A stretch of 18,217 bases of DNA from Candidatus Zixiibacteriota bacterium (GTDB lineage: Bacteria > Zixibacteria > MSB-5A5 > GN15 > FEB-12), in the NCBI GenBank assembly GCA_041742355.1, contig JBGSIV010000202.1, positions 1-18,217 on the forward strand, written 5' to 3'. Within the stretch, counting starts at the first letter, position 1. The number at the start of each line of letters is the position of its first letter. Below the pieces are notes generated by a model that saw only the letters and a program-made list of their open reading frames with translations, was not told where the DNA came from and did not search any database. Positions 806 through 18,217 of the stretch are shown one piece after another. The position numbers were made by a program, and so were the translations under genes.

Positions 806-1126
806 GACTTTCCCGAACCTTACCAGAGGTGTGACAGTCCTTCGGACGTTGCATCGGCACGGCAGAGAAAGTATACATCTTCACACCGCAGTTCAAGCGG
901 TTTCTGCACTCATGAAGCGACTTGTGCCGGTCGCGGATCATCCCACCGTAATGCACGACAAGGAGATTCCGGTACAGATGTTTGCCCGGCCGGGCCGGTA
1001 GACCGATAGCCCAAGCACAGCCGGACTGCCGCGCCACGGATGGCGGCGGGCAGATGAATTTCAACATTGGTTCGCCCCCGATTTCACCTGGGGTTGGTTT
1101 GCTACATCTTTGTTGGAGGACGACCC

Positions 1127-2794
1127 GTGAAAGCCCTTCGCACCCTTGTTTTCATCATCGCGACCGCCGCCGCAGCCGCCGGAGCGCTGGCTGCCCCCGG
1201 CGAGGTTCTGCTTAACATACCCAGCCCCGAATCCAATCCTCTCGGGATGACATATGATGGCAGCAGCCTCTGGGTTATCGACCGCCTCACCGATCGGATT
1301 TACCGTGTGAATCCGGTGGACGGCGCCGTTACCGATTCCCTCCCCACCCCCCGTTTCGATCCTACCGGCCTGGCCTGGGATGGCCGGCTGCTGTGGTGCG
1401 TCGACGGAGACGAGCGGGCGACGTATGCGATCAATCCGGCCACCAAAAAGCTCGAGCGGAGTATTGCCCTGGATATGGCCCGCCCCTCGGGCGTGGCGTG
1501 GGACGGCAAAAGCCTTTGGGTGGCCGATGAAGGCCGCCGCAAGCTTCACCAGGTGGATGTCAAGAAGGGCACTATCGCCCGATCGATCCCGGCCCCCTCG
1601 CAGACCATGTGTGGGATGACGTTCGACGGCAAGTACCTGTGGGTGGCTGATCGACACCGGGATCAGATCTACATGGTGTCCCCCGATCGCGGCGATGTCG
1701 TGATCACCCTGCGGTCACCCGGCCCGCACCCATGGGGACTCGCGTGGGACGGAAATAGCCTGTGGAATGTCGATTATCAGACCGATCGCATCTACAAACT
1801 GGTGGTTGATGACGGCACACTTTTCTCCCGCTACGACGGCAAGGCCGAGCAGGTCGAACTGGTCCACCAGGTGCGCAACTTCGGTCCCGAGAAATTGTCC
1901 TCGCTCCAGGTGACGATGGCCATCCCGGAAAATCGCGACACGCAGGAGCTGCTGGATACCGTTTCGTTCGGCCTTGCGCCAGCCCGTATCGCTAAAGACC
2001 GTTGGGGACAGCAAGTTGCAATCTGGCAGTTCAAGGACGTTCCGGCTGAGTCGTTCACCGATATCCGGATGAGCGTCCCGGCACGCATTTTCAGCACCCG
2101 CTACTTCGTCTACCCGGAGAAAGTCGGCACGTTGAGCCAGATCCCGCGGGACATTCGCATCAACTACCTGGCCGATGAATCCTGGTATGCCACATCCGAT
2201 CCGGTCATCCTGAACGCCCTGAAGCAGGTGGTCGGAAACGAGAAGAATCCGTACTGGATGGCCCGAAAGATTTACAACTACGTGATTGACCGCCTCACTT
2301 ATGAACTGGCCGGCGGCTGGAGCAAAGCGCCTGAGGTTCTCAAGCGCGGCACCGGATCCTGCTCCGAGTACAGCTTCGTGTTCGTGTCGATGTGCCGCGC
2401 GGCCGGTATCCCCGCCCGCCTGGCCGGTTCAGTCGTCATACGTGACGATGACGCCAGCTACGATAATGTCTTCCACCGCTGGGCCGAGATCTACCTGCCC
2501 AACTACGGCTGGATTCCGGTCGACCCGTCCGGCGGGGATTCCCCCCGCCCTTCCGACCGTGCCGACAATTTCGGCTACCTCGACAACCGGTACCTGATCA
2601 CGACGGTCGGCGGCGGCGCCTCTGATCTGCTGGCCTGGTCGTACAACGCCGGGGAGCGGTGGACGGCAAAGGGTACGCCCCAAGTGGCGGTGGAAAGCTT
2701 TGCGGAGTGGTCGCCCCTGTCGATCGAGACCCTGGCCTCGGATGTCGAGACCCCGGTCGGAGCAACCGCACAACCAGTCAATACCGCCCAGTAG
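1127..2794 (+). CDS. Secreted transglutaminase-like protein with an N-terminal five-repeat beta-propeller
   Basis: GTG at 1127 after GGAGGA, then a signal peptide (MKALRTLVFIIATAAAAAGALA). Five 41-aa G(L/M/V)x(W/Y/F)DGxxLW repeats. Transglutaminase Cys-His-Asp core: GSCSEYS...AAGIPAR...FHRWAEIYLPNYGWIPVDPS. 555 aa. Confidence 0.88.
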   Translation: MKALRTLVFIIATAAAAAGALAAPGEVLLNIPSPESNPLGMTYDGSSLWVIDRLTDRIYRVNPVDGAVTDSLPTPRFDPTGLAWDGRLLWCVDGDERATYAINPATKKLERSIALDMARPSGVAWDGKSLWVADEGRRKLHQVDVKKGTIARSIPAPSQTMCGMTFDGKYLWVADRHRDQIYMVSPDRGDVVITLRSPGPHPWGLAWDGNSLWNVDYQTDRIYKLVVDDGTLFSRYDGKAEQVELVHQVRNFGPEKLSSLQVTMAIPENRDTQELLDTVSFGLAPARIAKDRWGQQVAIWQFKDVPAESFTDIRMSVPARIFSTRYFVYPEKVGTLSQIPRDIRINYLADESWYATSDPVILNALKQVVGNEKNPYWMARKIYNYVIDRLTYELAGGWSKAPEVLKRGTGSCSEYSFVFVSMCRAAGIPARLAGSVVIRDDDASYDNVFHRWAEIYLPNYGWIPVDPSGGDSPRPSDRADNFGYLDNRYLITTVGGGASDLLAWSYNAGERWTAKGTPQVAVESFAEWSPLSIETLASDVETPVGATAQPVNTAQ

Positions 2795-2866: not shown

Positions 2867-3214
2867 TCAGGGAGTTAGGACTCGGCCGTACGTGAGCATC
2901 GCCTGCACGGTGTCTCTCATATTGCCCACCGTCCCCACTATGAGCTTCTCCCTGCGGCCGTAGTAGTCGAGGCAGGTTCCACAGGAACTCACCTCCGTAC
3001 CGTTCTCCGCGAAGCGATCCAGCTGTTCTTTGGCCGGACTTCCTTCGGTCGCCAGGAAGATCCCCGAGTTGAGGCAGAGTATCCGGGCCGGGAGTCGCCC
3101 GGATTCGAGGAGCATACACAGGAACGAGCCCATGAGGGCCTCTCCCAGGTCCGGCTCACCGTCGCCGATGCCATTTGATTTGAGAATCAGCAGCAGGTCC
3201 TTGTCAACGGTCAT
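2867..3214 (-). CDS. DsrE-family sulfurtransferase-like protein (YedF C-terminal domain-like, stand-alone)
   Basis: ATG at 3214 after GGAAAGGA; 115 aa. Motifs GIGDGEPDLGEALMGSFL, LNSGIFLATEGSP, SCGTCLDYYG and VGTVGNMRDTV match the DsrE domain of selenium-metabolism YedF proteins. Confidence 0.85.
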   Translation of the reverse strand: MTVDKDLLLILKSNGIGDGEPDLGEALMGSFLCMLLESGRLPARILCLNSGIFLATEGSPAKEQLDRFAENGTEVSSCGTCLDYYGRREKLIVGTVGNMRDTVQAMLTYGRVLTP

Positions 3215-3323
3215 GCTTGTCCTTTCCCTGGCGCCGGCTTCCGGTTCCGGTGCTTCCGGTGTCAGTTGTCGCGATATCCCGAGAGCCTTCGCCTGTTCCG
3301 ACCGGATAGATCCGGTTTTTTGG

Positions 3324-3351
3324 TAGACAAACAGTACTATTTCGCTATATT
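3324..3351 (+). promoter_or_regulatory. Putative sigma70-type promoter for the C1 protease gene
   Basis: TAGACA(3324-3329)-N16-TATATT(3346-3351) in an AT-rich patch about 120 nt upstream of the ATG at 3469. Confidence 0.4.
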
Positions 3352-3468
3352 GAAAGCAATAGAATAGGGCCTGACGGCTGTCAGAAGCGTTCCGCGCGAA
3401 GGCACGAATGCCGAGTGCCGCTGCTATCGCCGGCGGTCTGACGGACCATTGTGAAAGGACGATGCGCA

Positions 3469-5292
3469 ATGTCTCAGGTTTCACGCTCCCCCATCCTGTG
3501 GAAGACTTCCTGCCTTTTCAGTGTTGCACTCTCCCTCATGCTCTCCATCGCGCTGCCTGCCGCCGCCCAGTTGACCGAGAAGGACATAGCGGTGATGCAA
3601 CAGCGGATTGCCGAGGAGGGCCTTGGCTTTGAGGTCGGCCTGAACGACGCGACGCAGTATCCCCTCGAGCAGCTTTGTGGTTTGAAGGAGCCCCCGAATT
3701 GGCGCGACTCCGCCCGCTTTGTCGAATTCAGCGCCAAGGGACCTATCCCGCCGAGCTTCGACTGGCGCACGCGGACAGCCGGAGGCATGCCGCCGATCCG
3801 CAACCAGGGCGGCTGCGGCAGCTGCTGGGCTTTCGCCGCGATGGGAGCCCTGGAATGCGCAATCAAGATTCAGGATGGCCATGACGTCGACCTGTCCGAG
3901 CAGTGGCTGGTCAGTTGCAATCGTCACGGCTGGGGATGCGACGGCGGCTGGTGGGCTCACGACTACCTCTGCTATATCGGCGACCAGTGCGACAGCATCG
4001 GTGCCGTCCTCGAGCAGGATTATCCGTACACCGCTACCGACGCCCCCTGTTCCTGCTCCGATCCGCACCCATACAGGATCGAGACCTGGGGATACATCGG
4101 AGCGGCTCAGGGCGTGCCGATTGTTCCGGCTATCAAGCTGGCGATCATGCAGCACGGTCCCGTTACCGTGTCGGTCGCGGTGGACAACTACTTCCAGGCC
4201 TACCGCGGCGGTGTTTTCACTATCTGCACGGCGGCAGAAATCAACCACGCGGTGGTGATCGTGGGCTGGGACGATAACCTCGGCGCCTCGGGCGCCTGGA
4301 TTATGCGCAACTCCTGGGGGCCGAATTGGGGCGATAGCGGTTACATGTACATCGCCTACGGCTGCGATATGATCGGCTATGCCGCCAGTTTCATGGAATA
4401 TGACGGCGGGGTTGCCCTGTCCGCCGACGTGCAGTCGGGCTGGGCCCCGCTGGATGTGAACTTCGACGCCCAGTCCGGACTTAATCTGATCAACTGGTCG
4501 TGGAATTTCGGCGACGGCGCCACGGCCTCGGGCCAGGCTGCCACCCACACGTACACGCAGGCCGGCACCTACACGGTTGTCGCTTCCGGCATCGATTCGC
4601 TCGGGCAGGTTCGCTCACGTGAGAAGATCAACTACATCAGCGCCCTGGCCGACACCGTTCGAACGGTGCACACTGGCGCGGTTTGCGGCACCCGCCTTGA
4701 AGTCCCTGTCAGTGTTCGCAACAGCGCGCCGGTGCGCTACATGCGGCTGCCAATCGACTACAACGGGCCGGTGGACCTGCTGCTTGACTCGTTCTCGACC
4801 GCCGGCTGCCGCACCGATTATTTCCAGAAGGTTAGCGCTGTCCACGCCGACCTGATCGGCAAACGGCTCACCCTGCAGCTCATATCGTCGGAGTTGCAGA
4901 CCGCGCCGTACCTTGAACCGGGCGAGGGTCCGGTTGTGAGGCTGTTTTTCACCGTTCCCGATCAGGATCACCACGGCGAGGTGACCACAATTGACGTCGA
5001 CGGTTATTTGTCGTACACACCCCTGCTGAGTTGGCCGCTCCTGGAGTGGACGCCAAAGACTCTCAACGGCAGCGTCACGCTGGCAATCAACCGGGGTGAT
5101 TGCGACGGATCCAGCGGAATCACCGTCTCCGATCTGACCTTCCTCGTCAACTATCTCTTCCGCGGAGGCGCATCCCCGGTTCCGGCTCTGTCAGCCGACA
5201 GCGACTGCAGCATGTCAGTCAACATTAATGACGTGACCTACCTGGTGAACTACATGTTCAAAGGCGGTCCGGATCCGGCCTCCTGTTTCTGA
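3469..5292 (+). CDS. Secreted papain-family (C1A) cysteine peptidase with PKD, cohesin-like and C-terminal dockerin domains
   Basis: ATG at 3469 after GAAAGGA, then a signal peptide ending PAAA. Catalytic motifs NQGGCGSCWAF, INHAVVIVGW and MRNSWG. PKD motif WSWNFGDG...HTYTQAGTYTV. Duplicated dockerin GDCDGSSGITVSDLTFLVNYLFRGG / ADSDCSMSVNINDVTYLVNYMFKGG. 607 aa. Confidence 0.93.
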   Translation: MSQVSRSPILWKTSCLFSVALSLMLSIALPAAAQLTEKDIAVMQQRIAEEGLGFEVGLNDATQYPLEQLCGLKEPPNWRDSARFVEFSAKGPIPPSFDWRTRTAGGMPPIRNQGGCGSCWAFAAMGALECAIKIQDGHDVDLSEQWLVSCNRHGWGCDGGWWAHDYLCYIGDQCDSIGAVLEQDYPYTATDAPCSCSDPHPYRIETWGYIGAAQGVPIVPAIKLAIMQHGPVTVSVAVDNYFQAYRGGVFTICTAAEINHAVVIVGWDDNLGASGAWIMRNSWGPNWGDSGYMYIAYGCDMIGYAASFMEYDGGVALSADVQSGWAPLDVNFDAQSGLNLINWSWNFGDGATASGQAATHTYTQAGTYTVVASGIDSLGQVRSREKINYISALADTVRTVHTGAVCGTRLEVPVSVRNSAPVRYMRLPIDYNGPVDLLLDSFSTAGCRTDYFQKVSAVHADLIGKRLTLQLISSELQTAPYLEPGEGPVVRLFFTVPDQDHHGEVTTIDVDGYLSYTPLLSWPLLEWTPKTLNGSVTLAINRGDCDGSSGITVSDLTFLVNYLFRGGASPVPALSADSDCSMSVNINDVTYLVNYMFKGGPDPASCF

Positions 5293-7557: not shown

Positions 7558-7861
7558 CCACCGACTCCCTTTTGATAGTTCGCCCACCCCTTTCCCCGGC
7601 CCCCCGGCTGAGATAGAACTTCCTAACGGCAGAGAGGGAGGGTGCTCCTTCTATATACGACGATAGCCACAAATTTCACAATCTTCCGCGCGACTTCTGA
7701 CGTAGGATCTTCATGCTGAGAACATCTAACTCGTTAGCGCCAATGCGGAAGGTGGTCGCTACCCCTCTTTCACAAGTTACCGGCAGATTCTGTCAAAAGA
7801 GGATAATTCGTATGGTTTTAACTTGTTTTCTGCACCCGAAAGCCGATAGATATGGTAGAAA

Positions 7862-7879
7862 ATGACAGTAACATGACAG
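7862..7879 (-). promoter_or_regulatory. Pho-box-like / OmpR-PhoB family direct-repeat operator
   Basis: The minus strand reads CTGTCAT-GTTA-CTGTCAT: two perfect heptamers with 11-bp period, 26 nt upstream of the decaheme ATG. Confidence 0.5.
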
Positions 7880-7905
7880 AAATTCGCAACAGTGCGAGGT
7901 GCACA

Positions 7906-8850
7906 ATGACAGGAGTCTCCAGACACATGGCACGTTTCTCGGCGCCGTTGATCCTCGCGGTGCTCGTTCTGCTGGCGGGAGTACCGTCGGGGACGAGTCA
8001 GCCGGCCGAGGTCGACGACGAGACGTGCCTGACGTGTCACGAGGGATACAATGATCACCTGGCCAGCACGGCGCATCGCCTGAGTTCGGCGACAAAGAAC
8101 CCCTCAGTGCAGATCGCGTGTGTGAGTTGCCATCCGGGCGGCGCGGTACACATCGAAGACCCGTCGACGGAGAATATCTTCGACCCCGGCACGGCGACGG
8201 TCGAAGGACAGCTTGAGGTCTGCAGCCAGTGCCATCAGCCCCACACGGAACTGCGCCAGGTCGGTTTTGATCCGCATGTCGATCAAAACGTAGCCTGTGC
8301 CGACTGCCACAGCGTTCACAGCGGCACCACCGCCCTCCTCATCGATGATCAGGCCGCTTTCTGCGGCAAGTGCCACGTGGCCATCGTCAATGACTTCCGC
8401 CTTCGGTCCGCCCATCCGCTGACCGACGGTGCGGTGACCTGTGTCAGCTGCCACAACTTCTCCCGCGAAACCGAAGCGCGCTTCGGGCACGGTGAAGGGG
8501 CCAACTGCTTCCGGTGCCATCCGGAACAGAGCGGGCCGCATATGTTCGAGCACGAGGCGACCAGCTCGTTCACGACCGAAGGTAAGGGCTGTGTTTCCTG
8601 CCACAGTCCCCACGGGAGTCGAAACGAGCGGCTGCTCATCCAGACCGGCAACAGCCTCTGCCGTCAGTGCCACGGCCTACCGCCCGGACATCGGACCGCC
8701 CACGACGGTATCGGCGCGCAATTCGAGTGCATGGACTGCCACACGCAGGTCCACGGCTCGTTCGATAATCAGTTCCTGCTCGACCCGAACCTCGGCGCGG
8801 AACTTGGCGACGGTCCCGGCTCGTGCTGGTGCCATGGCGTGGATAACTAG
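7906..8850 (+). CDS. Periplasmic decaheme c-type cytochrome, MtrA/DmsE/PioA family
   Basis: Signal peptide and ten CxxCH motifs (CLTCH, CVSCH, CSQCH, CADCH, CGKCH, CVSCH, CFRCH, CVSCH, CRQCH, CMDCH). Family motifs SAHP, GPHMFEH, CHSPHGS and CHTQVHGS. Extra terminal CWCH. Start at ATG 7906 (GAGGTG) or 7927 (AGGAG). Confidence 0.92.
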   Translation: MTGVSRHMARFSAPLILAVLVLLAGVPSGTSQPAEVDDETCLTCHEGYNDHLASTAHRLSSATKNPSVQIACVSCHPGGAVHIEDPSTENIFDPGTATVEGQLEVCSQCHQPHTELRQVGFDPHVDQNVACADCHSVHSGTTALLIDDQAAFCGKCHVAIVNDFRLRSAHPLTDGAVTCVSCHNFSRETEARFGHGEGANCFRCHPEQSGPHMFEHEATSSFTTEGKGCVSCHSPHGSRNERLLIQTGNSLCRQCHGLPPGHRTAHDGIGAQFECMDCHTQVHGSFDNQFLLDPNLGAELGDGPGSCWCHGVDN

Positions 8851-8861
8851 GGAGAACGGAC

Positions 8862-10451
8862 ATGAAGCTGAAAACACAGATACTACTCCTGCTTGCCTGT
8901 GCCGGGCTCCTTCTGCCGGCGGCGCTCGCTGCCGCCGAATTCGCCGGAACCGCCCGGGTCGGGTACATTTATGTTGATGAAGAAGGCAATGAGGGCGTCT
9001 TCCAGCCGACGTACAACCTGTACGATGGCGTGGCCCTCTCCCTCGACGACTTCTACTACACGTTCGACAACGGCGTGCGGCTGTTCGGCGATCTGCATAA
9101 CATCACGCTGAACAACCGCAACCTCGCGCTGGGCGTGACCAAGTCGGGCCTCTTCGGCGTCGACATCCGGCACAACCAGTACCGGCGGGTCTTCAACTTC
9201 GAAGGCAGCCAGTTTACGAAACGATACAATACGCGCGGCAACGCCTGGTTCCAGCCCCACCGGCTGGTCAAGCTGTTCGGCGGGCTCGGCGTGACTCAGC
9301 GTCGCGGCGACCTTCTCGAGATCTTCACCGAACCGCCGCTGGGCAACCCGCTGCGCAACCTCGATTACACGAACACGTTCTATAACGGCGGCGTGACCGT
9401 CGGCGACCGCGGCCGCTTCGCGACCCTCGAATACCGAGGCTCGGAATTCAGCGACGATGGCCGTTCTCTGACTGGAGACCAGGAGGGGATCAGCGCCGAC
9501 CGGCAATCACATCGGTTCAGGTTGAGCGGCTTTGCTTCGGTCCCCGGCCTTGATGACCTCGTCGTAAATGCCGGCGCCCAGCGGTTCCAGTATACGGTCC
9601 AGACGCGAGAGGACACGCTGACCGCTAATACGTTCTGGGGTGGCGTCCGCTACTACTTCGGTGACGGCCTGAGTCTCCGCTACAGCGCTATCTGGGATCG
9701 TGCCCGCCGCACCGGCGACCTCGCGGCAACCGACAACATCAGCCATGCCGTGTACGGCGACAAGGTTTTCCGCGGCATCGGCGGCCTCACGGTCGGCTAC
9801 CAGTACCATATCAATGACGATGTCCGCGACGAGTTGGAAGGGCACGGCTACGTAATCTCCGGCCATGTTCGCCCGGTGACCGGTGTGACGCTCCGGGCCG
9901 GCTACGGCGCCGACATGCTTGAGGTTAAGGCCGGTCGCACCCTGACCGGCGACGAGGATCGGACGCGCGCGTGGGGTTCCGCCTCGTGGCGATACGGCCA
10001 CGGCCAGATTCGGGTCAAGGTCGAGGATCGCACACTTGAAAACGACGAGATCGGCACCAGCGTGGATTTCCTTCGCGCCAGCTCCGACCTCTCCGCGACC
10101 TACGAACGAATCGGCGAGTTTTCGGTCGGCTACGCTTACTATAATGGAGACTACGACAACCGGGATGACGCCTCCCGCTTTGAAGAACACGTCGTCTCCG
10201 GCGACTTCCTCTCCGCCGCATACCGGAACATCCAGGCTGGCTTCGGCGGCATGTACATGCGCAGCCGGCTCGATACCGATGTCGAGAGTTTCACCGTCAG
10301 CCTGCGGGGCATCTACTCCTTCATGCCCAGGCATAAGCTTGAGGTCATCTACTCGGCGCACAACTTCGACAACTTCGGCGACCTGTCCCCGCTCTACCGG
10401 GAGTACTACACGGCCAATGTGGTCGAGGTTAATCTCCTGCATGAGTTCTAA
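8862..10451 (+). CDS. Outer-membrane beta-barrel, MtrB/PioB-like porin partner of the decaheme
   Basis: RBS GGGAG; starts 11 nt after the decaheme stop. Signal peptide, alternating amphipathic strands rich in Y/F/G, and a BAM-type C-terminal strand ending in Phe (VVEVNLLHEF); 529 aa. The MtrB role is inferred from context. Confidence 0.85.
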   Translation: MKLKTQILLLLACAGLLLPAALAAAEFAGTARVGYIYVDEEGNEGVFQPTYNLYDGVALSLDDFYYTFDNGVRLFGDLHNITLNNRNLALGVTKSGLFGVDIRHNQYRRVFNFEGSQFTKRYNTRGNAWFQPHRLVKLFGGLGVTQRRGDLLEIFTEPPLGNPLRNLDYTNTFYNGGVTVGDRGRFATLEYRGSEFSDDGRSLTGDQEGISADRQSHRFRLSGFASVPGLDDLVVNAGAQRFQYTVQTREDTLTANTFWGGVRYYFGDGLSLRYSAIWDRARRTGDLAATDNISHAVYGDKVFRGIGGLTVGYQYHINDDVRDELEGHGYVISGHVRPVTGVTLRAGYGADMLEVKAGRTLTGDEDRTRAWGSASWRYGHGQIRVKVEDRTLENDEIGTSVDFLRASSDLSATYERIGEFSVGYAYYNGDYDNRDDASRFEEHVVSGDFLSAAYRNIQAGFGGMYMRSRLDTDVESFTVSLRGIYSFMPRHKLEVIYSAHNFDNFGDLSPLYREYYTANVVEVNLLHEF

Positions 10452-10531
10452 GACCGGTGAATCTGACGATGGCAAGAATAAACGCACATAAGAACACTTG
10501 CGATACGCAACAACTCCCGATGGAGGATGCA

Positions 10532-11626
10532 ATGAGACACATGAGATTTGTGATGATCGCCCTGGCTGCGCTGGCGCTGGTGATTGCCGGCTGCGACCGA
10601 GAGATCACCGGTGACGTGGAACTGGCCGATCAGAGCGCGTCCAACTGCTTTGACTGCCACAGCGACCAGGATTGGGACATTCTGCACGCCCAGACCCAGC
10701 ATGCCGTATCCGTTCACGGTACCGGACATACGTTCGCTGAGAACGAGATCAACGACGCAGCTTCCTGTCAGCGTTGCCACACCCACGAGGGATTTGTGGC
10801 CAATCTGAATCCGGAAATCGAAACCGGCAGCGATTTCACCCGGATCGACTGCTTCACCTGCCACGCGCCTCACTCCAGCGGTAATCTCTCCCTGCGGGTC
10901 GAGAATGCGGTTACCCTGATGAACGGCGTGACGTTTGATCGGCAGGACGCGAACCTCTGCGCTTCGTGCCACATGAGCCGCCGCAACGTGGACACCTACG
11001 TTATCGAAGGCGCAACTATGGGTTCACGTTTCGGTCCGCACCACAGCAACCATGCCGACATGCTCATTGGCACCAACGCCTACGAGTACGAGGGCTACAG
11101 CTACACGACATCGTGGCACGGCCAGAATATCGAGGACGGTTGCATCTCCTGCCACATGGCCGACAAGAGCGTCTGGGCCAATGTCGGCGGGCATACCTGG
11201 AACATGGCCGCCGAGAGTGAAGAGGAAGAAGAAGAGCTCGAAAACATCGGGGCCTGCACCCAGTGCCACGAGTCGTTCGAGTCCTTTAACGCCGACTTCC
11301 CGACCGGCGCAGACTATGACGGCGACGGTGAAGCCGAAGGCGTGCAGGCCGAAGTTGCCAGCCTTCTCGACAGCCTCCACACCGTCCTGTTCACCGCCGG
11401 TCTGGTCGATGAGGAAGGCACACCGCGGTCCGGTACCGCCGGCGTCGATTCATTGGGCGCTGTGTTCAACTTCAAGTTTGTCGAAGAAGAGCGCTCCCTC
11501 GGTATTCACAACACGAACTACGCCGTCGGGCTGCTGCTGTCCTCGATCAACTACATCGTGTACGGCGATCCGAACGGCTCCGAGCCGACCGTTGCCGGCC
11601 GTCCGGCTACGTTTTCGGCGCACTGA
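10532..11626 (+). CDS. Hexaheme c-type cytochrome lipoprotein (NrfA/OcwA/OmhA-like fold)
   Basis: ATG at 10532 after GGAGG; lipobox VIAG-C. Six CxxCH motifs (CFDCH, CQRCH, CFTCH, CASCH, CISCH, CTQCH). C-terminal helices and an ERSLGIHN motif; 364 aa, very acidic. Confidence 0.88.
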   Translation: MRHMRFVMIALAALALVIAGCDREITGDVELADQSASNCFDCHSDQDWDILHAQTQHAVSVHGTGHTFAENEINDAASCQRCHTHEGFVANLNPEIETGSDFTRIDCFTCHAPHSSGNLSLRVENAVTLMNGVTFDRQDANLCASCHMSRRNVDTYVIEGATMGSRFGPHHSNHADMLIGTNAYEYEGYSYTTSWHGQNIEDGCISCHMADKSVWANVGGHTWNMAAESEEEEEELENIGACTQCHESFESFNADFPTGADYDGDGEAEGVQAEVASLLDSLHTVLFTAGLVDEEGTPRSGTAGVDSLGAVFNFKFVEEERSLGIHNTNYAVGLLLSSINYIVYGDPNGSEPTVAGRPATFSAH

Positions 11627-13528: not shown

Positions 13529-14908
13529 ATGAAACACTGCTGCCGGTTCACCAAAATTCTCGTAGCGAGTCTACTCGTTGCATCGTGTCTGGCGCCGCTC
13601 GCCGCGGCCGAAAACTTCACGCGGGTAGAGTCGCCGGCGGTGCCGCCGATGCCCACTGTGGTTCCCGTGGCCGACGCATCCCTGGCCGCGTTTGGCGGCA
13701 CGCTCCGGCTGTTCGTAGTCGAGCCCAACTCCCGGTGGGTCGATAACAACGGCCAGCCATTTCGCTACGCATACATGGACATGGCGCTTGACTCAGCCGT
13801 GACGATCAACGATGGCCAGCGCATCGTTCTCAGCCGTACGTGGCTGGCCAGCTCGTCGGGGTTCAGTGGTTATCAGCAGAACAATATCAAGGTCATTGCT
13901 GTCCTGTTCGAGGACGACGTACATGCCGGATATTCGGATCCGCCGACCGGGGCTCCCTTCAGCGCCTACTACGTTGCGGCCACCGCGGCGGCCATGCCCG
14001 GCACCTGCGACAGCAACAACACGTCGGCCAACTCGACGCACTCGGCCTTTATCGAAGAGGCGAGCGCCAATTACTGCCCGTACTGCCCGACGACCAACTA
14101 CTACGTCAACTACATCTACAACGGCGGTGTCTACAATTTCCACTACGTGACGCATGTCCGCGACCGGAACTCGGAGTCCTATACGGTGCTCGCCCGCTAC
14201 AATGTCGCCGCTATCCCCTGCTGCTACTTCGATGGCGGTGACGAAGTGGTACTGGGTGGTTACGGCGCAACCTCGTACTACACGACTCCCCTTCTGGCCG
14301 CCTGCCAGCGCGCGGTGGAAGGTGCGAACGTCGCCGTAAAGGTCGAGTGGCTGAACGCGAACGGCGATCTGGCTATCGACGTCATCCTTACCAAGGGGGT
14401 TGCAGTCGATAATGCGCCGTCAGCCGACGTGCCCGCCGGGGAGATCAAACCTCTCATCGGGCAGTCATACGAGTACAGCACCTCGGGGACCGACTCCGAC
14501 GGCGACAACCTCTACTTCAAGTTCAATTGGGGAGACAGCCAGGAGTCGGATTGGCTTGGCCCCTATGCCCCCGGTGAGACGTGCACGGCCAGCCACAGCT
14601 GGGCGAATCTGGGGCCATACAACGTCACGGTCAAGTGCCGCGACAACTGGTATGCCGAGACCGCTTGGTCCGCTCCGCTGGCCGTTCAGGCCGGTTGCTG
14701 CGTGATGCGCGGCGACGTCTCGGGTGACAACAAGGTGATTGTGAGCGACCTGACGTTCCTGGTCAACTTCCTCTTCAAGAGCGGACCGGCCGCCCCGTGC
14801 AGTGACCACGGCGACGTCAACAACGACAACAAGGTTATCGTGTCCGACCTGACCTATCTGGTCAACTTCCTCTTCAAAGCGGGAGCGGCGCCGATAGCCT
14901 GCGACTGA
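13529..14908 (+). CDS. Secreted Omp28/thioredoxin-like (CPYC) protein with PKD-like and C-terminal dockerin domains
   Basis: RBS GAGAGGA; signal peptide. Thioredoxin motif FIEEASANYCPYCP and cis-Pro loop AAIPCCYFDGG. PKD-like TDSDGDNLYFKFNWGD...WLGPY...ASHSW. Duplicated dockerin GDVxxDNKVIVSDLT(F/Y)LVNFLFK. 459 aa. Confidence 0.85.
   Translation: MKHCCRFTKILVASLLVASCLAPLAAAENFTRVESPAVPPMPTVVPVADASLAAFGGTLRLFVVEPNSRWVDNNGQPFRYAYMDMALDSAVTINDGQRIVLSRTWLASSSGFSGYQQNNIKVIAVLFEDDVHAGYSDPPTGAPFSAYYVAATAAAMPGTCDSNNTSANSTHSAFIEEASANYCPYCPTTNYYVNYIYNGGVYNFHYVTHVRDRNSESYTVLARYNVAAIPCCYFDGGDEVVLGGYGATSYYTTPLLAACQRAVEGANVAVKVEWLNANGDLAIDVILTKGVAVDNAPSADVPAGEIKPLIGQSYEYSTSGTDSDGDNLYFKFNWGDSQESDWLGPYAPGETCTASHSWANLGPYNVTVKCRDNWYAETAWSAPLAVQAGCCVMRGDVSGDNKVIVSDLTFLVNFLFKSGPAAPCSDHGDVNNDNKVIVSDLTYLVNFLFKAGAAPIACD
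14711..14884 (+). repeat. Intragenic duplication: two 75-nt dockerin half-repeats with 99-nt period
   Basis: 14711-14785 and 14810-14884 encode 25-aa segments that are 21/25 identical. Confidence 0.9.
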
Positions 14909-14977: not shown

Positions 14978-15113
14978 GGGACGGATCTCCATACGGAGCC
15001 TCCGACGTGCGGGTGGGCCGTCGAATTTCATCCTTGATTGTAGAATCTATACCTGTTTATTGGGATTGATCTGTGGAGACCGTGCTTTTCGACCGAAACA
15101 TCCGAGGGATTCG

Positions 15114-16070
15114 ATGCCATACAACTTCGCTCTGACCGGCGCTTCCGGATTTGTGGCGCCGCGACATCTGAAAGCCATCAAAGACACCGGCAATACGCTC
15201 GTGGCGGCTGTCGATCCGCACGACAGCGTGGGCGTGCTCGACGGCTACTTTGACAAGGTGGCTTTTTTCACCGAGTTCGAGCGTTTTGACCGCCACATCG
15301 AGAAGCTCCGGCGGCTGGGACCGGAACGGGCCATCGACTACGTGTCGATCTGCTCCCCGAACTATCTCCACGACGCCCACTGCCGCTTTGCCCTGCGGGT
15401 TGGCGCCAACGCAGTCTGCGAGAAGCCCCTCGTCCTGAATCCCTGGAATTGCGACGCCCTCGAGGAACTTGAGATCGAAAGCGGCAGGAAGATCTACACC
15501 ATCCTCCAACTCCGGGTTCATCCCGCCCTCATCGCGCTCCGCGACCGCCTCCAGAATCTCCCCGCTGGCGCCAAACGGGATGTCCGGCTGACCTACATCA
15601 CCTCCCGCGGCCAATGGTATCTCGTGTCGTGGAAAGGGCAGATCGAGCGGTCGGGCGGCCTTGCGACCAATATCGGGATCCACTTTTTCGATCTGCTCAT
15701 GTGGTTTTTCGGCAGCGTCCAGCATTCAGAGGTTCACCTCGCCCAGCCGCTGCACACCGCCGGATTCCTCGAACTCGAGCGCGCCCGGGTTCAGTGGTTT
15801 CTCTCGATCGATCAGAATGACCTGCCCGACGAAGCTCGGGCGAAGGGTCAGCGAACGTATCGTTCGATTACGATCGATGGCGAGGAGATCGAGTTCTCGG
15901 AGGGTTTCACCGACCTGCACACGGTGGTCTACCGCGAAACGCTGGCCGGCCGGGGTTTCGGCCTGCAACACGCCCGACCGTCCATCGAACTGGTGCATGA
16001 CCTTCGCGTGGCCACCGCCGTCGGGATCAACGACAATGCCCATCCGCTGGTGAAGAAGCTCCGCAGCTGA
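15114..16070 (+). CDS. wbpB: UDP-N-acetyl-2-amino-2-deoxyglucuronate dehydrogenase (WbpB/WlbA; Gfo/Idh/MocA family)
   Basis: ATG at 15114 after GAGGGA. Motifs FALTGASGFVAPRHLKAIKDTG, DPHDSVGVLD, FFTEFERFDRH, SICSPNYLHDAH, CEKPLVLNPWN, SWKG...SGGLATNIGIHFFD and EFSEGFTDLH; 318 aa. Confidence 0.93.
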   Translation: MPYNFALTGASGFVAPRHLKAIKDTGNTLVAAVDPHDSVGVLDGYFDKVAFFTEFERFDRHIEKLRRLGPERAIDYVSICSPNYLHDAHCRFALRVGANAVCEKPLVLNPWNCDALEELEIESGRKIYTILQLRVHPALIALRDRLQNLPAGAKRDVRLTYITSRGQWYLVSWKGQIERSGGLATNIGIHFFDLLMWFFGSVQHSEVHLAQPLHTAGFLELERARVQWFLSIDQNDLPDEARAKGQRTYRSITIDGEEIEFSEGFTDLHTVVYRETLAGRGFGLQHARPSIELVHDLRVATAVGINDNAHPLVKKLRS

Positions 16071-16092
16071 TTCAAGAAGCACTTGAAAATAC

Positions 16093-16128
16093 GAAAGCCG
16101 CCGATCGGTAGGATCGGCGGCTTCTTTC
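16093..16128. terminator. Bidirectional intrinsic terminator between wbpB and gatD
   Basis: AAGCCGCCGATC(16095-16106)-GGTAG-GATCGGCGGCTT(16112-16123): perfect 12-bp stem flanked by A-rich and T-rich tracts. Confidence 0.85.
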
Positions 16129-16153
16129 ATTCAATCGGAATGCTGCGCCCGAC

Positions 16154-17539
16154 CTACTTGTGGATCTTCCGCAGGAACTCCTCGACCTCGGGAACCCCCC
16201 CCTGGAAGATCAGGTAACCGTTGTAGGGCTCGCGGGCCGTAGTCTCGTCCCCCACTGGAGTCAGCATGAGCCGCTTCACTTCGGCCGGATCATCGGTCTG
16301 CCCGAGCGCCCACGCCAGCTTGATGTAGGCCACTTCCGGCAGCATGTTCTCGGTCGGGATGATCCCGAGGCTCATCAGATCGCGGCCGGTGTCGTACACG
16401 AACATGTGCACGTAACCCCACAGCGTCTGCACGGTCATGTAGATGTGGATCCCGGCTTTGGCCGCTCGTTCGATGGCCGGGTACACCGGCTTGTTGATGT
16501 GCCCCAGCCCGGTGCCGGCGATCACGATCCCGCGGTAATGGTTCTCCCTCAGGGAATCGATGATGTCCGGCATCATGTTCGGGTAGTAGTAGACCATCGC
16601 CACTTTCTCTTCGAAGTACGGCAGGATCGTGACCTCGCGATCCTTGCGGCGGCGGTTGTAGTTCTCCCGCAGCGGCGTGATCTTCTCCCGGTTTACCATC
16701 GCCAGCGGCGTCTCGCCGATAGTCCGGAAGGTCGAACGGTACGACGAGTGCATCTTCCGCACGCGCGTACCGCTGTGGAGCAGGCCATACTCGTCCGAGG
16801 TTGGCCCGAACATGCAGACCATCACTTCGGCAATATCGGATTCGGCCGCAGTCTTGGTGGCGTGAATGAGATTGAGCGCGGCGTCCGATGACGGACGGTC
16901 GCTTGAACGCTGCGACCCGACCATCACAATCGGGATCGGCGATCCCTGCACCATGAACACCAGGGCCGCGGCCGTGTGGTGCATCGTGTCGGTGCCGTGA
17001 CCTATAATGATACCGTCGGTGCCGTTCTCGATTTCACGCCCGATCGCTTTGGCCAGTTCCATGTACTGGTACGGCCCCATGTTTTCGCTGAAGACCGCAA
17101 ACAGCTTCTCGGTGCTCAAGTTGCAGATATCGGCCAGTTCCGGAACCGCGCCATACAGTTCCCCCGGCGAAAAAGCGGGAATCACCGCGCCGGTGCGGTA
17201 GTCGAGGCGCGAGGCAATCGTCCCACCGGTGCCGAGCAGTTTCACGGCGGGCTTGCCCGGCGACACCGGGAACTGCTTCTCCGGGATCTTGTAGTGGGCC
17301 TCTTTGTAGCCGTGCTCCTTCATGTCGAGAATGGTCGCGACATCGATCCCGATGTTGTAGCCGGTGATCAGCTTGAGCACGAGGTGGCGGTCGTCGTCGT
17401 TGATCGACCGCGGCAGGAGAATGCCGCTGAACACACCCCGCGTAGTGCTGATCTCGGTTTCGCACCAGACCCTGATATTGTGCTTCTCGAGCACTCCGCG
17501 CGCCGCCCCCCGGTATCCCTTCATGACATCCTCGGTCAT
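16154..17539 (-). CDS. gatD: Glutamyl-tRNA(Gln) amidotransferase subunit D (archaeal-type GatD)
   Basis: ATG at 17539 after GAAGGAGG, overlapping the gatE stop (ATGA). GatD N-terminal domain (GILLP...LVLKLITGYNIGI) plus an asparaginase-fold core: TGGTIASRLDYRTGAV, HGTDT, GSQRSSDRPSSDA, VRKMHSSYRSTF, NMLPEVAYIKLAWALG. 461 aa. Confidence 0.95.
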   Translation of the reverse strand: MTEDVMKGYRGAARGVLEKHNIRVWCETEISTTRGVFSGILLPRSINDDDRHLVLKLITGYNIGIDVATILDMKEHGYKEAHYKIPEKQFPVSPGKPAVKLLGTGGTIASRLDYRTGAVIPAFSPGELYGAVPELADICNLSTEKLFAVFSENMGPYQYMELAKAIGREIENGTDGIIIGHGTDTMHHTAAALVFMVQGSPIPIVMVGSQRSSDRPSSDAALNLIHATKTAAESDIAEVMVCMFGPTSDEYGLLHSGTRVRKMHSSYRSTFRTIGETPLAMVNREKITPLRENYNRRRKDREVTILPYFEEKVAMVYYYPNMMPDIIDSLRENHYRGIVIAGTGLGHINKPVYPAIERAAKAGIHIYMTVQTLWGYVHMFVYDTGRDLMSLGIIPTENMLPEVAYIKLAWALGQTDDPAEVKRLMLTPVGDETTAREPYNGYLIFQGGVPEVEEFLRKIHK

Positions 17540-18081
17540 CGCGACACCTCCTTCTCGACTTTGGCGCGGAGGGTGTCGAACGGCACATTCCCGAGCGCGG
17601 ACGGTCGAAGCTGGCCCATGATCCACTGTATTGCAGCATCCGGCGCCTTGGATCGTTTGTGTCTCCTGAACCGGCCGAACAGCGCCGGAATCGACGCCAG
17701 CACCTCATCGACAGTCCGCGGGCGGTAGCCGATTCGCCCGAGCGCGGCTTCCGGATTCACCGCCGGGCTGGCGATCATCATGGGCAACAGCTCCTTGAGT
17801 ATCTCCCGGTCGAGCTTCCGTTCGTGCACAAAGGCGAAGAGTTGATACAGCCGTTCGCGGTCAATCTTCGTCCGTCGACCGAGAGTCCCCTCGATGTTCT
17901 TCAGCAGATGGCCAAACAGTTTGCCGACCCACGACGGGCTGCAGTCGAACTCGGCGATCACCCGCTCCATCAGCGGCACCAGGTTCTTCCGCAAGATGTA
18001 GCTGTGGGCATCCGGTGGGACATTCCACGTCCGCAACTGCTGACGGCGCTCGGAGAGGTCTTTCGGAAGGCTCCGCCGCAT
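17536..18081 (-). CDS. gatE: Glutamyl-tRNA(Gln) amidotransferase subunit E (GatE), C-terminal ~180 aa only; 5' part replaced at a junction near 18070-18082
   Basis: Helical protein ending in a GatB/Yqey-like tail ([16 protein letters not shown]), translationally coupled to gatD. The catalytic cradle is absent, and the frame hits TAG/TGA at 18136-18141 inside unrelated sequence. The call rests on the tail motif plus adjacency to gatD. Confidence 0.75.
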
Positions 18082-18217
18082 TTGTCGTACTTCATCCCTT
18101 GAATATTGGTGGTGTCTTTCAGCGAATAACCGCCGCTATCAAAAGTCAGGGCTTTTCCTACCAGGACCACAGGTTTCTCCGTCGTCAATCCGGGATTGCC
18201 TGGATATTCAAGTATGA
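18069..18217 (-). other. pepA: Internal fragment of an M17 leucyl aminopeptidase gene, joined out of frame to gatE
   Basis: Frame open from the right edge: [49 protein letters not shown], the M17 metal-binding motif GKxxTFDxGGxxLK...MKxD. Similarity stops abruptly afterwards. Confidence 0.88.

What the first reader, a model, noticed from the sequence alone, without database searches (positions are those of the whole stretch)
16154..18081. Archaeal-type GatDE tRNA(Gln) amidotransferase in a bacterial genome
Seen: a full GatD with its N-terminal domain and catalytic motifs, coupled by an ATGA overlap to an upstream GatE-like C-terminus. It sits in the same GC and codon context as clearly diderm genes (outer-membrane barrels, lipoprotein). 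Established: GatDE is classically archaea-specific and acts on archaeal tRNA(Gln) with an A1-U72 pair, whereas bacteria use GatCAB (U1-A72) or GlnRS. Inference: an ameliorated inter-domain acquisition that gives a third bacterial route to Gln-tRNA, possibly with altered tRNA recognition. Homologues may already be annotated in other uncultured bacteria, but I know of no functional characterisation.
Basis: partly seen in the sequence, partly recalled or inferred. Interest (0 to 1): 0.7.

Follow-up and report, generated by a model that had tools for sequence, protein, structure and literature searches.

The report
Accessory GatDE amidotransferase in a bacterium
This bacterium carries an intact copy of GatDE, an enzyme pair that reviews call archaea-only; it is common in its phylum but sits on top of the normal ways of making glutaminyl-tRNA rather than replacing them, and most likely serves as a back-up that runs on asparagine when glutamine is short.

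Summary
gatD (16154-17539, minus) passes both curated GatD cut-offs and overlaps a gatE 3' part. The rest of gatE ends contig C201, public contigs continue gatE across the break, and the window's last 139 bases are a misjoined aminopeptidase fragment. The genome is bacterial (Zixibacteria, inferred), has GlnRS and AsnRS, no GatCAB was found, and both tRNA-Gln genes have U1-A72. The 'third route' reading is not supported: of 239 phylum genomes, 163 carry GatE; 152 of these have GlnRS, 10 more have GatB, and one fragmented genome has neither. The bacterial GatE branch (100/100) also holds Thermoplasmata archaea, where gatD/gatE sit beside an A1-U72 tRNA-Gln gene and glnA. That ties the branch to Gln-tRNA, but the direction of transfer is unresolved. 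Best reading (0.45): an accessory Glu-tRNA(Gln) amidotransferase using asparagine as amide donor. An Asp-tRNA(Asn) role or a new substrate stay open. Eight paper searches showed no report of bacterial GatDE; NCBI already names the proteins. This scan noted the same system before in at least seven other genomes.

The parts
16154..17539 (-). gatD, 461 aa: asparaginase-fold amidase subunit with the GatD N-terminal domain and the Thr (GGTIA), Thr-Asp (HGTD) and Lys (RKMH) catalytic motifs
   Evidence: best solved relatives of a same-genus orthologue are the two archaeal GatD chains
17536..18078 (-). 3' part of gatE (helical and YqeY-like tail region, about 180 codons). The first 477 codons lie at the end of contig C201 (13944-15376, +); the gene is split by an assembly gap
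17536..17539 (-). ATGA stop/start overlap coupling gatE to gatD, with an SD-like motif 6 nt upstream of the gatD start
   Evidence: read from the sequence
18079..18217 (-). foreign leucyl-aminopeptidase (M17) fragment misjoined at the contig end; an assembly artefact, not part of the locus
   Evidence: family; GC 0.47, GC3 0.51; no cover at 18132-18217; contigs leave at 18075-18078; not found elsewhere in the genome
16094..16124 (.). terminator-like hairpin on both strands, between gatD and the convergent Gfo/Idh/MocA oxidoreductase gene
   Evidence: consensus match only

Best explanation
An intact gatE-gatD operon of a large, mostly bacterial branch of the GatDE family. Sequence and fold show that GatD keeps the asparaginase active site and that GatE keeps the kinase site, the insertion domain and the tRNA-binding tail. 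The inferred mechanism is that of archaeal GatDE: GluRS puts Glu on tRNA-Gln; GatE binds the tRNA and phosphorylates the Glu; GatD releases ammonia from an amide donor; the product is Gln-tRNA(Gln). Here it is not the main route, because GlnRS is present. Its most likely value is that GatD can use asparagine, whereas GlnRS needs free glutamine and bacterial GatCAB strongly prefers glutamine. GatDE would then keep Gln codons readable, and clear Glu-tRNA(Gln), when glutamine is short. This explains why it is kept whether or not GlnRS or GatCAB is present and why it replaces neither. My odds: tRNA-linked amidotransferase chemistry about 0.8; Glu-tRNA(Gln) as substrate about 0.55; the asparagine-fuelled back-up role about 0.45.
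For: GatD motifs are kept in 79-80 of 80 related loci. The three GatE Mg-site motifs are found in 65, 65 and 61 of 65 subclade sequences and in this genome (the residues are named in PMC2330236, passages). A model of a close GatE (pLDDT 92.5) matches archaeal GatE best (E 5e-48, against 8e-25 for GatB). The same GatE branch (100/100) holds proteins named Thermoplasmata. Their loci carry divergent gatD/gatE; 7 of 80 metagenome loci have a tRNA-Gln gene right after gatE, 6 of them A1-U72. Scanned neighbours include glnA, asparagine synthetase A, ORC1 and a PriL-like gene (50 of 93 ORFs). This genome's GatD is 67-72% identical to theirs. Donor preference (PMC2330236, passages): H. pylori GatCAB is 130-fold better with Gln than with Asn, while M. 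thermautotrophicus GatDE uses Asn at least as well as Gln. GatE is independent of GatB among GlnRS-bearing genomes: GatB in 76 of 152 with GatE and 21 of 52 without. Orthologues of this GluRS (52-63% identical, same Arg) are the only GluRS found in six GlnRS-less relatives, so they must charge tRNA-Gln there (inference).
Against: No activity or expression was measured. Archaeal GatDE reads A1-U72 (PMC2330236), while all tRNA-Gln seen here are U1-A72. This GluRS has Arg where discriminating T. thermophilus GluRS has Arg and non-discriminating T. elongatus GluRS has Gly. Three GlnRS-less GatE+ genomes (G127, G130, G275) use a foreign GluRS only 34-35% identical, which hints that the resident enzyme may discriminate. 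Thirty-one genomes have GlnRS and neither amidotransferase, so clearing Glu-tRNA(Gln) is not generally needed. No glutamine-independent asparagine synthetase goes with GatE: 0 of 5 GatE+ and 0 of 5 GatE- genomes pass the AS-AR cut-off. Glutamine-synthetase-family genes are in 79 of 80 genomes. No conserved neighbours point to nitrogen metabolism in bacterial loci.
Confidence: 0.45

Rival explanations
1. Repurposed enzyme: GatD and GatE still work together, but on another acceptor (a glutamyl group on a protein, peptide or metabolite), or as a tRNA-gated asparaginase/glutaminase for amino-acid catabolism or nitrogen sensing.
For: Its presence does not follow GlnRS or GatB as a Gln-tRNA supplier's should. 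GatD is strongly conserved across related loci (70-82%), while the tRNA-binding C-terminal part of GatE drifts (25-49%) and scores under the GatB_Yqey cut-off. The acceptor-stem loop is changed in this subclade. gatD and gatE lie apart in some relatives (G027, G033, G036, G039).
Against: The full GatE architecture, tail included, aligns with archaeal GatE from end to end and is confidently modelled. The sister archaeal members sit next to tRNA-Gln. No recurring partner gene for another pathway was seen in 117 bacterial loci.
Confidence: 0.25
3. Stand-alone third bacterial route to Gln-tRNA(Gln) that can replace GlnRS and GatCAB.
For: One genome (G263, 94% complete, 130 contigs) has GatE but no GlnRS, GatB or amidase found. 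The Thermoplasmata members probably work this way in archaea (inference; their whole genomes were not searched).
Against: 162 of 163 GatE+ phylum genomes have GlnRS or GatB. Four genomes show none of the three, which sets the level of loss from incomplete assembly. Three of five genomes of G263's family have GlnRS. This genome has GlnRS.
Confidence: 0.07
4. Archaeal contamination or misbinning.
For: The contig end is chimeric and the genome is a 310-contig assembly.
Against: GatD passes its cut-off in 26 of 40 relatives, three of them single-contig genomes. The 80 best public loci all carry bacterial record titles. One identical contig runs from 15000 to 16544, from the bacterial neighbour into gatD. 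Codon use matches the host synthetase genes.
Confidence: 0.01

Closest known systems
Archaeal GatDE Glu-tRNA(Gln) amidotransferase (M. thermautotrophicus, PDB 2D6F; P. abyssi, PDB 1ZQ1)
   Same: Both subunits, catalytic residues, GatD N-terminal domain, GatE insertion domain and tail; best sequence and fold matches.
   Different: Bacterial host with GlnRS; U1-A72 rather than A1-U72 tRNA-Gln; a separate GatE branch (100/100); the loop beside the 1-72 pair lacks its basic residue in this subclade; not essential, judging by distribution (76 of 239 phylum genomes show no GatE).
GatDE of Thermoplasmata (ex4572_165-like; MBG-D/Thermoprofundales by my recall)
   Same: Same GatE branch; GatD 67-72% identical.
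   Different: Archaeal context, divergent gene layout, an adjacent A1-U72 tRNA-Gln gene, glnA and asparagine synthetase A nearby, and the archaeal-type loop in 27 of 27.
GatCAB kept beside GlnRS and AsnRS (Thermus, Deinococcus, Bdellovibrio)
   Same: A seemingly redundant amidotransferase kept for a metabolic reason (PMC2330236, passages; PMC4206432, abstract start).
   Different: Different amidase subunit (asparaginase fold, not amidase). Those cells use it to make Asn with a non-discriminating AspRS and lack AsnA/AsnB; here AspRS looks mostly discriminating and AsnB-family genes are common.
Type I L-asparaginases
   Same: Shared fold and Thr-Lys-Asp active site (asnASE_I, 371 bits).
   Different: GatD_N domain, much higher GatD scores (407 bits against at most 133 in the PDB) and coupling to gatE.

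Membership tests
GatDE (archaeal-type Glu-AdT) | GatD: asparaginase-fold subunit with GatD N-terminal domain and Thr/Thr-Lys-Asp active site | tested here: met
GatDE (archaeal-type Glu-AdT) | GatE: GatB-paralogous cradle domain with the His/Glu/Glu Mg ligands | tested here: met
GatDE (archaeal-type Glu-AdT) | GatE-specific AspRS-like (GAD) insertion domain | tested here: met
   Continuous alignment with 2D6F/1ZQ1 across the insertion; modelled alpha/beta domain and weak AspRS fold hits. The Pfam GAD model itself does not hit this subclade.
GatDE (archaeal-type Glu-AdT) | Helical and YqeY-like tail for D-loop binding | tested here: met
   Present but diverged: GatB_Yqey below cut-off; helices modelled to the end of a close relative.
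GatDE (archaeal-type Glu-AdT) | Cognate tRNA-Gln with an A1-U72 first pair | tested here: not met
   Both tRNA-Gln genes are U1-A72. 29 tRNA-Gln(CUG) of relatives are U1-A72 (28 by script, 1 by eye; they were found by likeness to this genome's tRNA, so the sample is biased). An archaeal-type tRNA-Gln query found nothing in 5 closed genomes, without a positive control.
GatDE (archaeal-type Glu-AdT) | Conserved basic short loop beside the first base pair | tested here: not met
   Basic residue in 73 of 74 outgroup and 27 of 27 Thermoplasmata-type sequences, 0 of 64 in this subclade. The loop was located by alignment from the description in PMC2811023.
GatDE (archaeal-type Glu-AdT) | Sole route to Gln-tRNA(Gln) in a host without GlnRS | tested here: not met
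   GlnRS is present here; 162 of 163 GatE+ genomes have GlnRS or GatB.
GatDE (archaeal-type Glu-AdT) | A non-discriminating GluRS supplies Glu-tRNA(Gln) | tested here: inconclusive
   Bacterial-type GluRS with Arg at the anticodon position; the same Arg is in GlnRS-less relatives, but three other GlnRS-less genomes replaced their GluRS.
GatDE (archaeal-type Glu-AdT) | ATP- and tRNA-dependent transamidation by an alpha2beta2 complex | not testable with these tools
   needs a biochemical assay
GatCAB | Amidase-family GatA, GatC, and a GatB without the insertion domain | tested here: not met
   No amidase and no GatB found in this 94% complete genome; the C201 protein scores 118 bits on gatB (cut-off 314.8) against 357.7 on gatE_arch.
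Stand-alone type I L-asparaginase | Catalytic domains only, with no GatD_N domain and no GatE partner | tested here: not met
   GatD_N is present; gatE lies beside gatD in 76 of 79 related loci with room upstream.

The most novel reading that the evidence does not exclude
GatDE is not an archaeal signature but has an old, deep bacterial branch, possibly native to Bacteria rather than imported. About two thirds of Zixibacteria and many other anaerobes keep it for a job neither GlnRS nor GatCAB can do: glutamine-independent, asparagine-fuelled Gln-tRNA synthesis on a U1-A72 tRNA, or a new substrate. One Thermoplasmata lineage took this bacterial enzyme as its essential amidotransferase. The trees do not reject a root between the bacterial branch and the archaea (p-AU 0.13 and 0.37).
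Probability: 0.25. Interest if true: 0.8.

Novelty: new variant of a known kind. Interest (0 to 1): 0.58.

Why it matters
Reviews up to 2022 call GatDE exclusively archaeal (PMC8762117, PMC2811023, PMC9499178; passages). They also use its A1-U72 specificity to explain why archaea never gained GlnRS. A widespread bacterial branch that lives with U1-A72 tRNA and GlnRS breaks that rule. It makes two open questions testable: why indirect aminoacylation routes are kept beside direct ones, and whether both amidotransferases go back to LUCA. It also gives a natural pair of near-identical enzymes, one beside archaeal A1-U72 tRNA-Gln and one in a U1-A72 host, for mapping first-base-pair recognition. 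In practice, gatD/gatE should not be used as archaeal markers or as contamination flags.

Tried and rejected
1) 'GatDE depends on GlnRS', suggested by 40 relatives (27 of 28 GatDE+ had GlnRS). Weakened phylum-wide: 11 of 163 GatE+ genomes lack GlnRS, and 10 of them have GatB. GlnRS is still more frequent with GatE (152 of 163 against 52 of 76), but kin are not independent, so the Fisher p is not evidence. 2) 'GatDE replaces GatCAB': rejected; GatB is no rarer with GatE. 3) 'GatDE covers for a missing glutamine synthetase': rejected; GS-family genes are in 79 of 80 genomes. 4) Coupling to an ammonia-dependent asparagine synthetase: not seen in 5 + 5 genomes. 5) GluRS anticodon Arg as a marker of discrimination: uninformative, Arg in 49 of 51 rows including GlnRS-less genomes. 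6) GxxAxGx tail motif as a specificity marker: not usable. 7) Loop change as co-evolution with U1-A72: not clean; G033 and G036 keep the archaeal-type loop with a U1-A72 tRNA-Gln. 8) FastTree trees nested the branch inside archaea next to a Heimdallarchaeota protein; the careful tree leaves that node open, and none of three clade tests rejects. 9) Conserved neighbours: none beyond gatE/gatD, apart from family-level synteny. 10) No RNA holder listed, which says nothing on expression. 11) The foreign tail had no match among plasmids; a GatE query found one partial haloarchaeal plasmid match. 12) No complex prediction was sent, as GatD-GatE is a solved pair. 13) The 40 genomes reached through loci are not an independent other-phylum sample: several share contig coordinates with phylum members, so phylum names from record titles are used with caution. 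14) Sheppard and Soll 2008 (J Mol Biol) is not held, so its species survey was not seen; no supplements were read.
Full report
1. Observation. The window is the whole of contig C202 of a 4.37-Mb, 310-contig genome, 94% complete. On the minus strand, 16154-17539 encodes a 461-aa protein that passes both curated GatD cut-offs (494.5 against 310; 484 against 324) and has the GatD N-terminal domain. For a same-genus orthologue, the best solved relatives are the two archaeal GatD chains (407 and 389 bits), far above any asparaginase (at most 133). The frame upstream matches the last 180 positions of GatE and ends in an ATGA overlap with the gatD start.

2. The upstream end is an assembly artefact, and gatE is whole. 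Bases 18079-18217 encode part of a leucyl aminopeptidase, with GC 0.47 and GC3 0.51 against GC3 0.76-0.86 for gatD, gatE and four host synthetase genes. None of the four runs laid covers 18132-18217. Contigs of three runs end at 18075-18078, and two have loose ends in another sequence. Read by hand, the longer loose end continues the GatE frame and has the length needed to reach contig C201. The first 477 codons of gatE end C201 and pass the gatE_arch cut-off. Of 80 related loci, 73 hold both halves, 72 of them 36 nt apart.

3. Host inventory. The named close hits are mostly Zixibacteria, and a protein named Zixibacteria is 100% identical to a gene in a genome of the same class, so I infer that phylum. 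The genome has GlnRS, one bacterial GluRS, a bacterial AspRS and AsnRS, all above cut-off, plus two proteins with only the AsnRS catalytic domain. It has two glutamine-synthetase-family genes and one AsnB-family gene. No amidase and no GatB were found. Both tRNA-Gln genes and tRNA-Asn have U1-A72.

4. Distribution. GatD passes its cut-off in 26 of 40 relatives. In one genome per species, 598 stretches encode a relative; the 80 best (70-82% identical) all carry bacterial titles, including Bacteroidales, Cloacimonadota, Aminicenantes, Acidobacteria, Clostridia and Chloroflexia (titles not checked against GTDB). In 239 phylum genomes at least 85% complete, I searched GatE (one protein query), GlnRS and GatB. 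The GatE/GlnRS/GatB table is +++ 76, ++- 76, +-+ 10, +-- 1, -++ 21, -+- 31, --+ 20, none 4. GatE is thus in 163 of 239 and never clearly stands alone: the one exception is 94% complete in 130 contigs, and four genomes lack all three. GatE does not exclude GatB, and 31 genomes manage with GlnRS alone. At least one GatE-negative call is a miss (G010 has gatD and part of gatE).

5. Phylogeny. Among proteins clustered at 50% identity, this GatE falls in a distinct branch with about 30 deep clusters. Named members are Deltaproteobacteria, CSSED10-310, Zixibacteria and Bacteroidetes, but also 'Thermoplasmata archaeon' and 'Thermoplasmatales archaeon ex4572_165'; that these are MBG-D is my recall. 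One partial protein inside the Thermoplasmata group is labelled Bacteroidetes. Named proteins outside the branch are Heimdall-, Thor- and Thermoprotei archaea; most rows have no name. In a 46-row IQ-TREE tree rooted on four GatB (LG+G4, no mixture model), the branch has 100/100 support and the base of GatE is open. Holding all archaea together, all bacteria together, or the non-Thermoplasmata archaea together is not rejected (p-AU 0.127, 0.245, 0.367). A GatD identity of 67-72% to the Thermoplasmata-type loci makes a transfer between the domains likely; its direction is open.

6. A functional anchor. The Thermoplasmata-type loci have gatD and gatE divergent. Seven of 80 metagenome loci have a tRNA-Gln gene right behind gatE: six A1-U72, one A1-A72. 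Among 50 of 93 neighbouring ORFs scanned are glnA, asparagine synthetase A, ORC1 and a PriL-like primase. So members of this branch sit in a glutamine cluster in archaea and probably act there as the ordinary Glu-tRNA(Gln) amidotransferase (inference; their genomes were not searched for a second gatE).

7. Protein features. GatD motifs are kept in 79-80 of 80 loci. The GatE His/Glu/Glu Mg ligands (PMC2330236, passages) are kept. A close full-length GatE aligns with 2D6F and 1ZQ1 over its whole length, models at pLDDT 92.5 and matches those structures best. The short loop next to the 1-72 pair (PMC2811023, passages) has a basic residue in 73 of 74 outgroup, 27 of 27 Thermoplasmata-type, 13 of 13 of a second group around Zixibacteria-named proteins, 15 of 24 deep and 0 of 64 of this subclade's sequences. 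That fits changed recognition but is not tied to U1-A72, since G033 and G036 keep the archaeal-type loop.

8. Partner synthetases. The GluRS has Arg where the discriminating T. thermophilus enzyme has Arg and the non-discriminating T. elongatus enzyme has Gly. The same Arg is in orthologues from six GlnRS-less relatives, which must charge tRNA-Gln, while three other GlnRS-less genomes use a foreign GluRS: inconclusive. The AspRS has Leu at the His position in 48 of 51 genomes read; Gly is kept at the second position in most relatives, and Lys stands there in seven GatE+ genomes. This weighs against an Asp-tRNA(Asn) role. The meaning of these positions is recalled; the alignments are from the calls.

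9. Mechanism. Shown: an intact GatDE with full catalytic equipment, in a host whose tRNA-Gln is U1-A72 and which has GlnRS. Inferred: it amidates Glu-tRNA(Gln) as an accessory route. It is kept regardless of GlnRS and GatCAB and replaces neither, so it should offer something both lack. [quoted passage not shown] I give the asparagine-fuelled back-up 0.45, a repurposed substrate 0.25, an Asp-tRNA(Asn) role 0.13 and a stand-alone route 0.07. Against the best reading: no linked ammonia-dependent Asn synthetase, near-universal GS-family genes and the unsettled GluRS.

10. Literature. Passages of PMC8762117, PMC2330236 and PMC9499178, and the abstract listing of PMC2811023, state that GatDE is archaeal only; PMC9976931 (passages) adds nothing on bacteria. 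Eight searches listed no paper whose title or abstract start reports bacterial GatDE. I read only listings for the rest, most subscription papers are not held, Sheppard and Soll 2008 was not available, and no supplements were seen, so a mention elsewhere is possible. NCBI and JGI already name these proteins GatD and GatE in bacterial genomes. Earlier notes of this scan describe the same system in other genomes.

11. Verdict. A real feature and a new variant of a known kind. By its proteins it is a GatDE; it fails the archaeal criteria of an A1-U72 tRNA, the basic loop and being the sole route. Interest 0.58.

Noticed in passing
window 7852-11626 (+): A multiheme cytochrome (DmsE/GSU2203-like, below cut-offs), a 529-aa protein with no family hit that may be an outer-membrane barrel, and a multiheme protein with an MtrC/MtrF-like Pfam hit: a porin-cytochrome-type cluster for possible extracellular electron transfer.
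   Followed up: no
window 18079-18217: Misjoined leucyl-aminopeptidase fragment at the contig end; it differs from the genome's own aminopeptidase on C21 (52% identical).
   Followed up: yes
G000 C39:1143-2144 and C127:484-1959: Two proteins with only the AsnRS catalytic domain and weak, sub-threshold hits to archaeal-type asparagine synthetase A. Similar 330-380-aa frames occur in relatives with and without GatDE.
   Followed up: partly
L214 about 2230-2560 (G011:C5) and G032:C7:22764-23237: Short gatB remnants in genomes that have GlnRS and GatDE: recent decay of gatCAB.
   Followed up: partly
L392, L393, L394 (G127, G130, G275): GlnRS-less genomes of two families share a foreign GluRS (34-35% identical to this genome's), suggesting a transferred non-discriminating GluRS that came with loss of GlnRS.
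   Followed up: partly
G277:C28, G278:C39, G282:C34: glnS lies within about 1-4 kb of gatE in three genomes of one family.
   Followed up: no
L223, L224, L234, L238, L246, L247, L251: A tRNA-Gln gene directly behind gatE in Thermoplasmata-type loci; one copy has an A1-A72 mismatch.
   Followed up: yes
window 2867-3484 (-) and G000 contig C4: A YedF-like selenium-metabolism gene in the window, and a tRNA-Sec gene elsewhere in the genome.
   Followed up: no
window 1067-2794, 3451-5292, 13529-14908 (+): Probably secreted proteins: a Vgb-lyase-like repeat region fused to a transglutaminase-like domain; a papain-like protease with a PKD domain; a PKD/dockerin-like protein.
   Followed up: no
G027, G033, G036, G039: gatD and gatE lie far apart in this family, and its GatE keeps the archaeal-type acceptor-stem loop.
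   Followed up: partly
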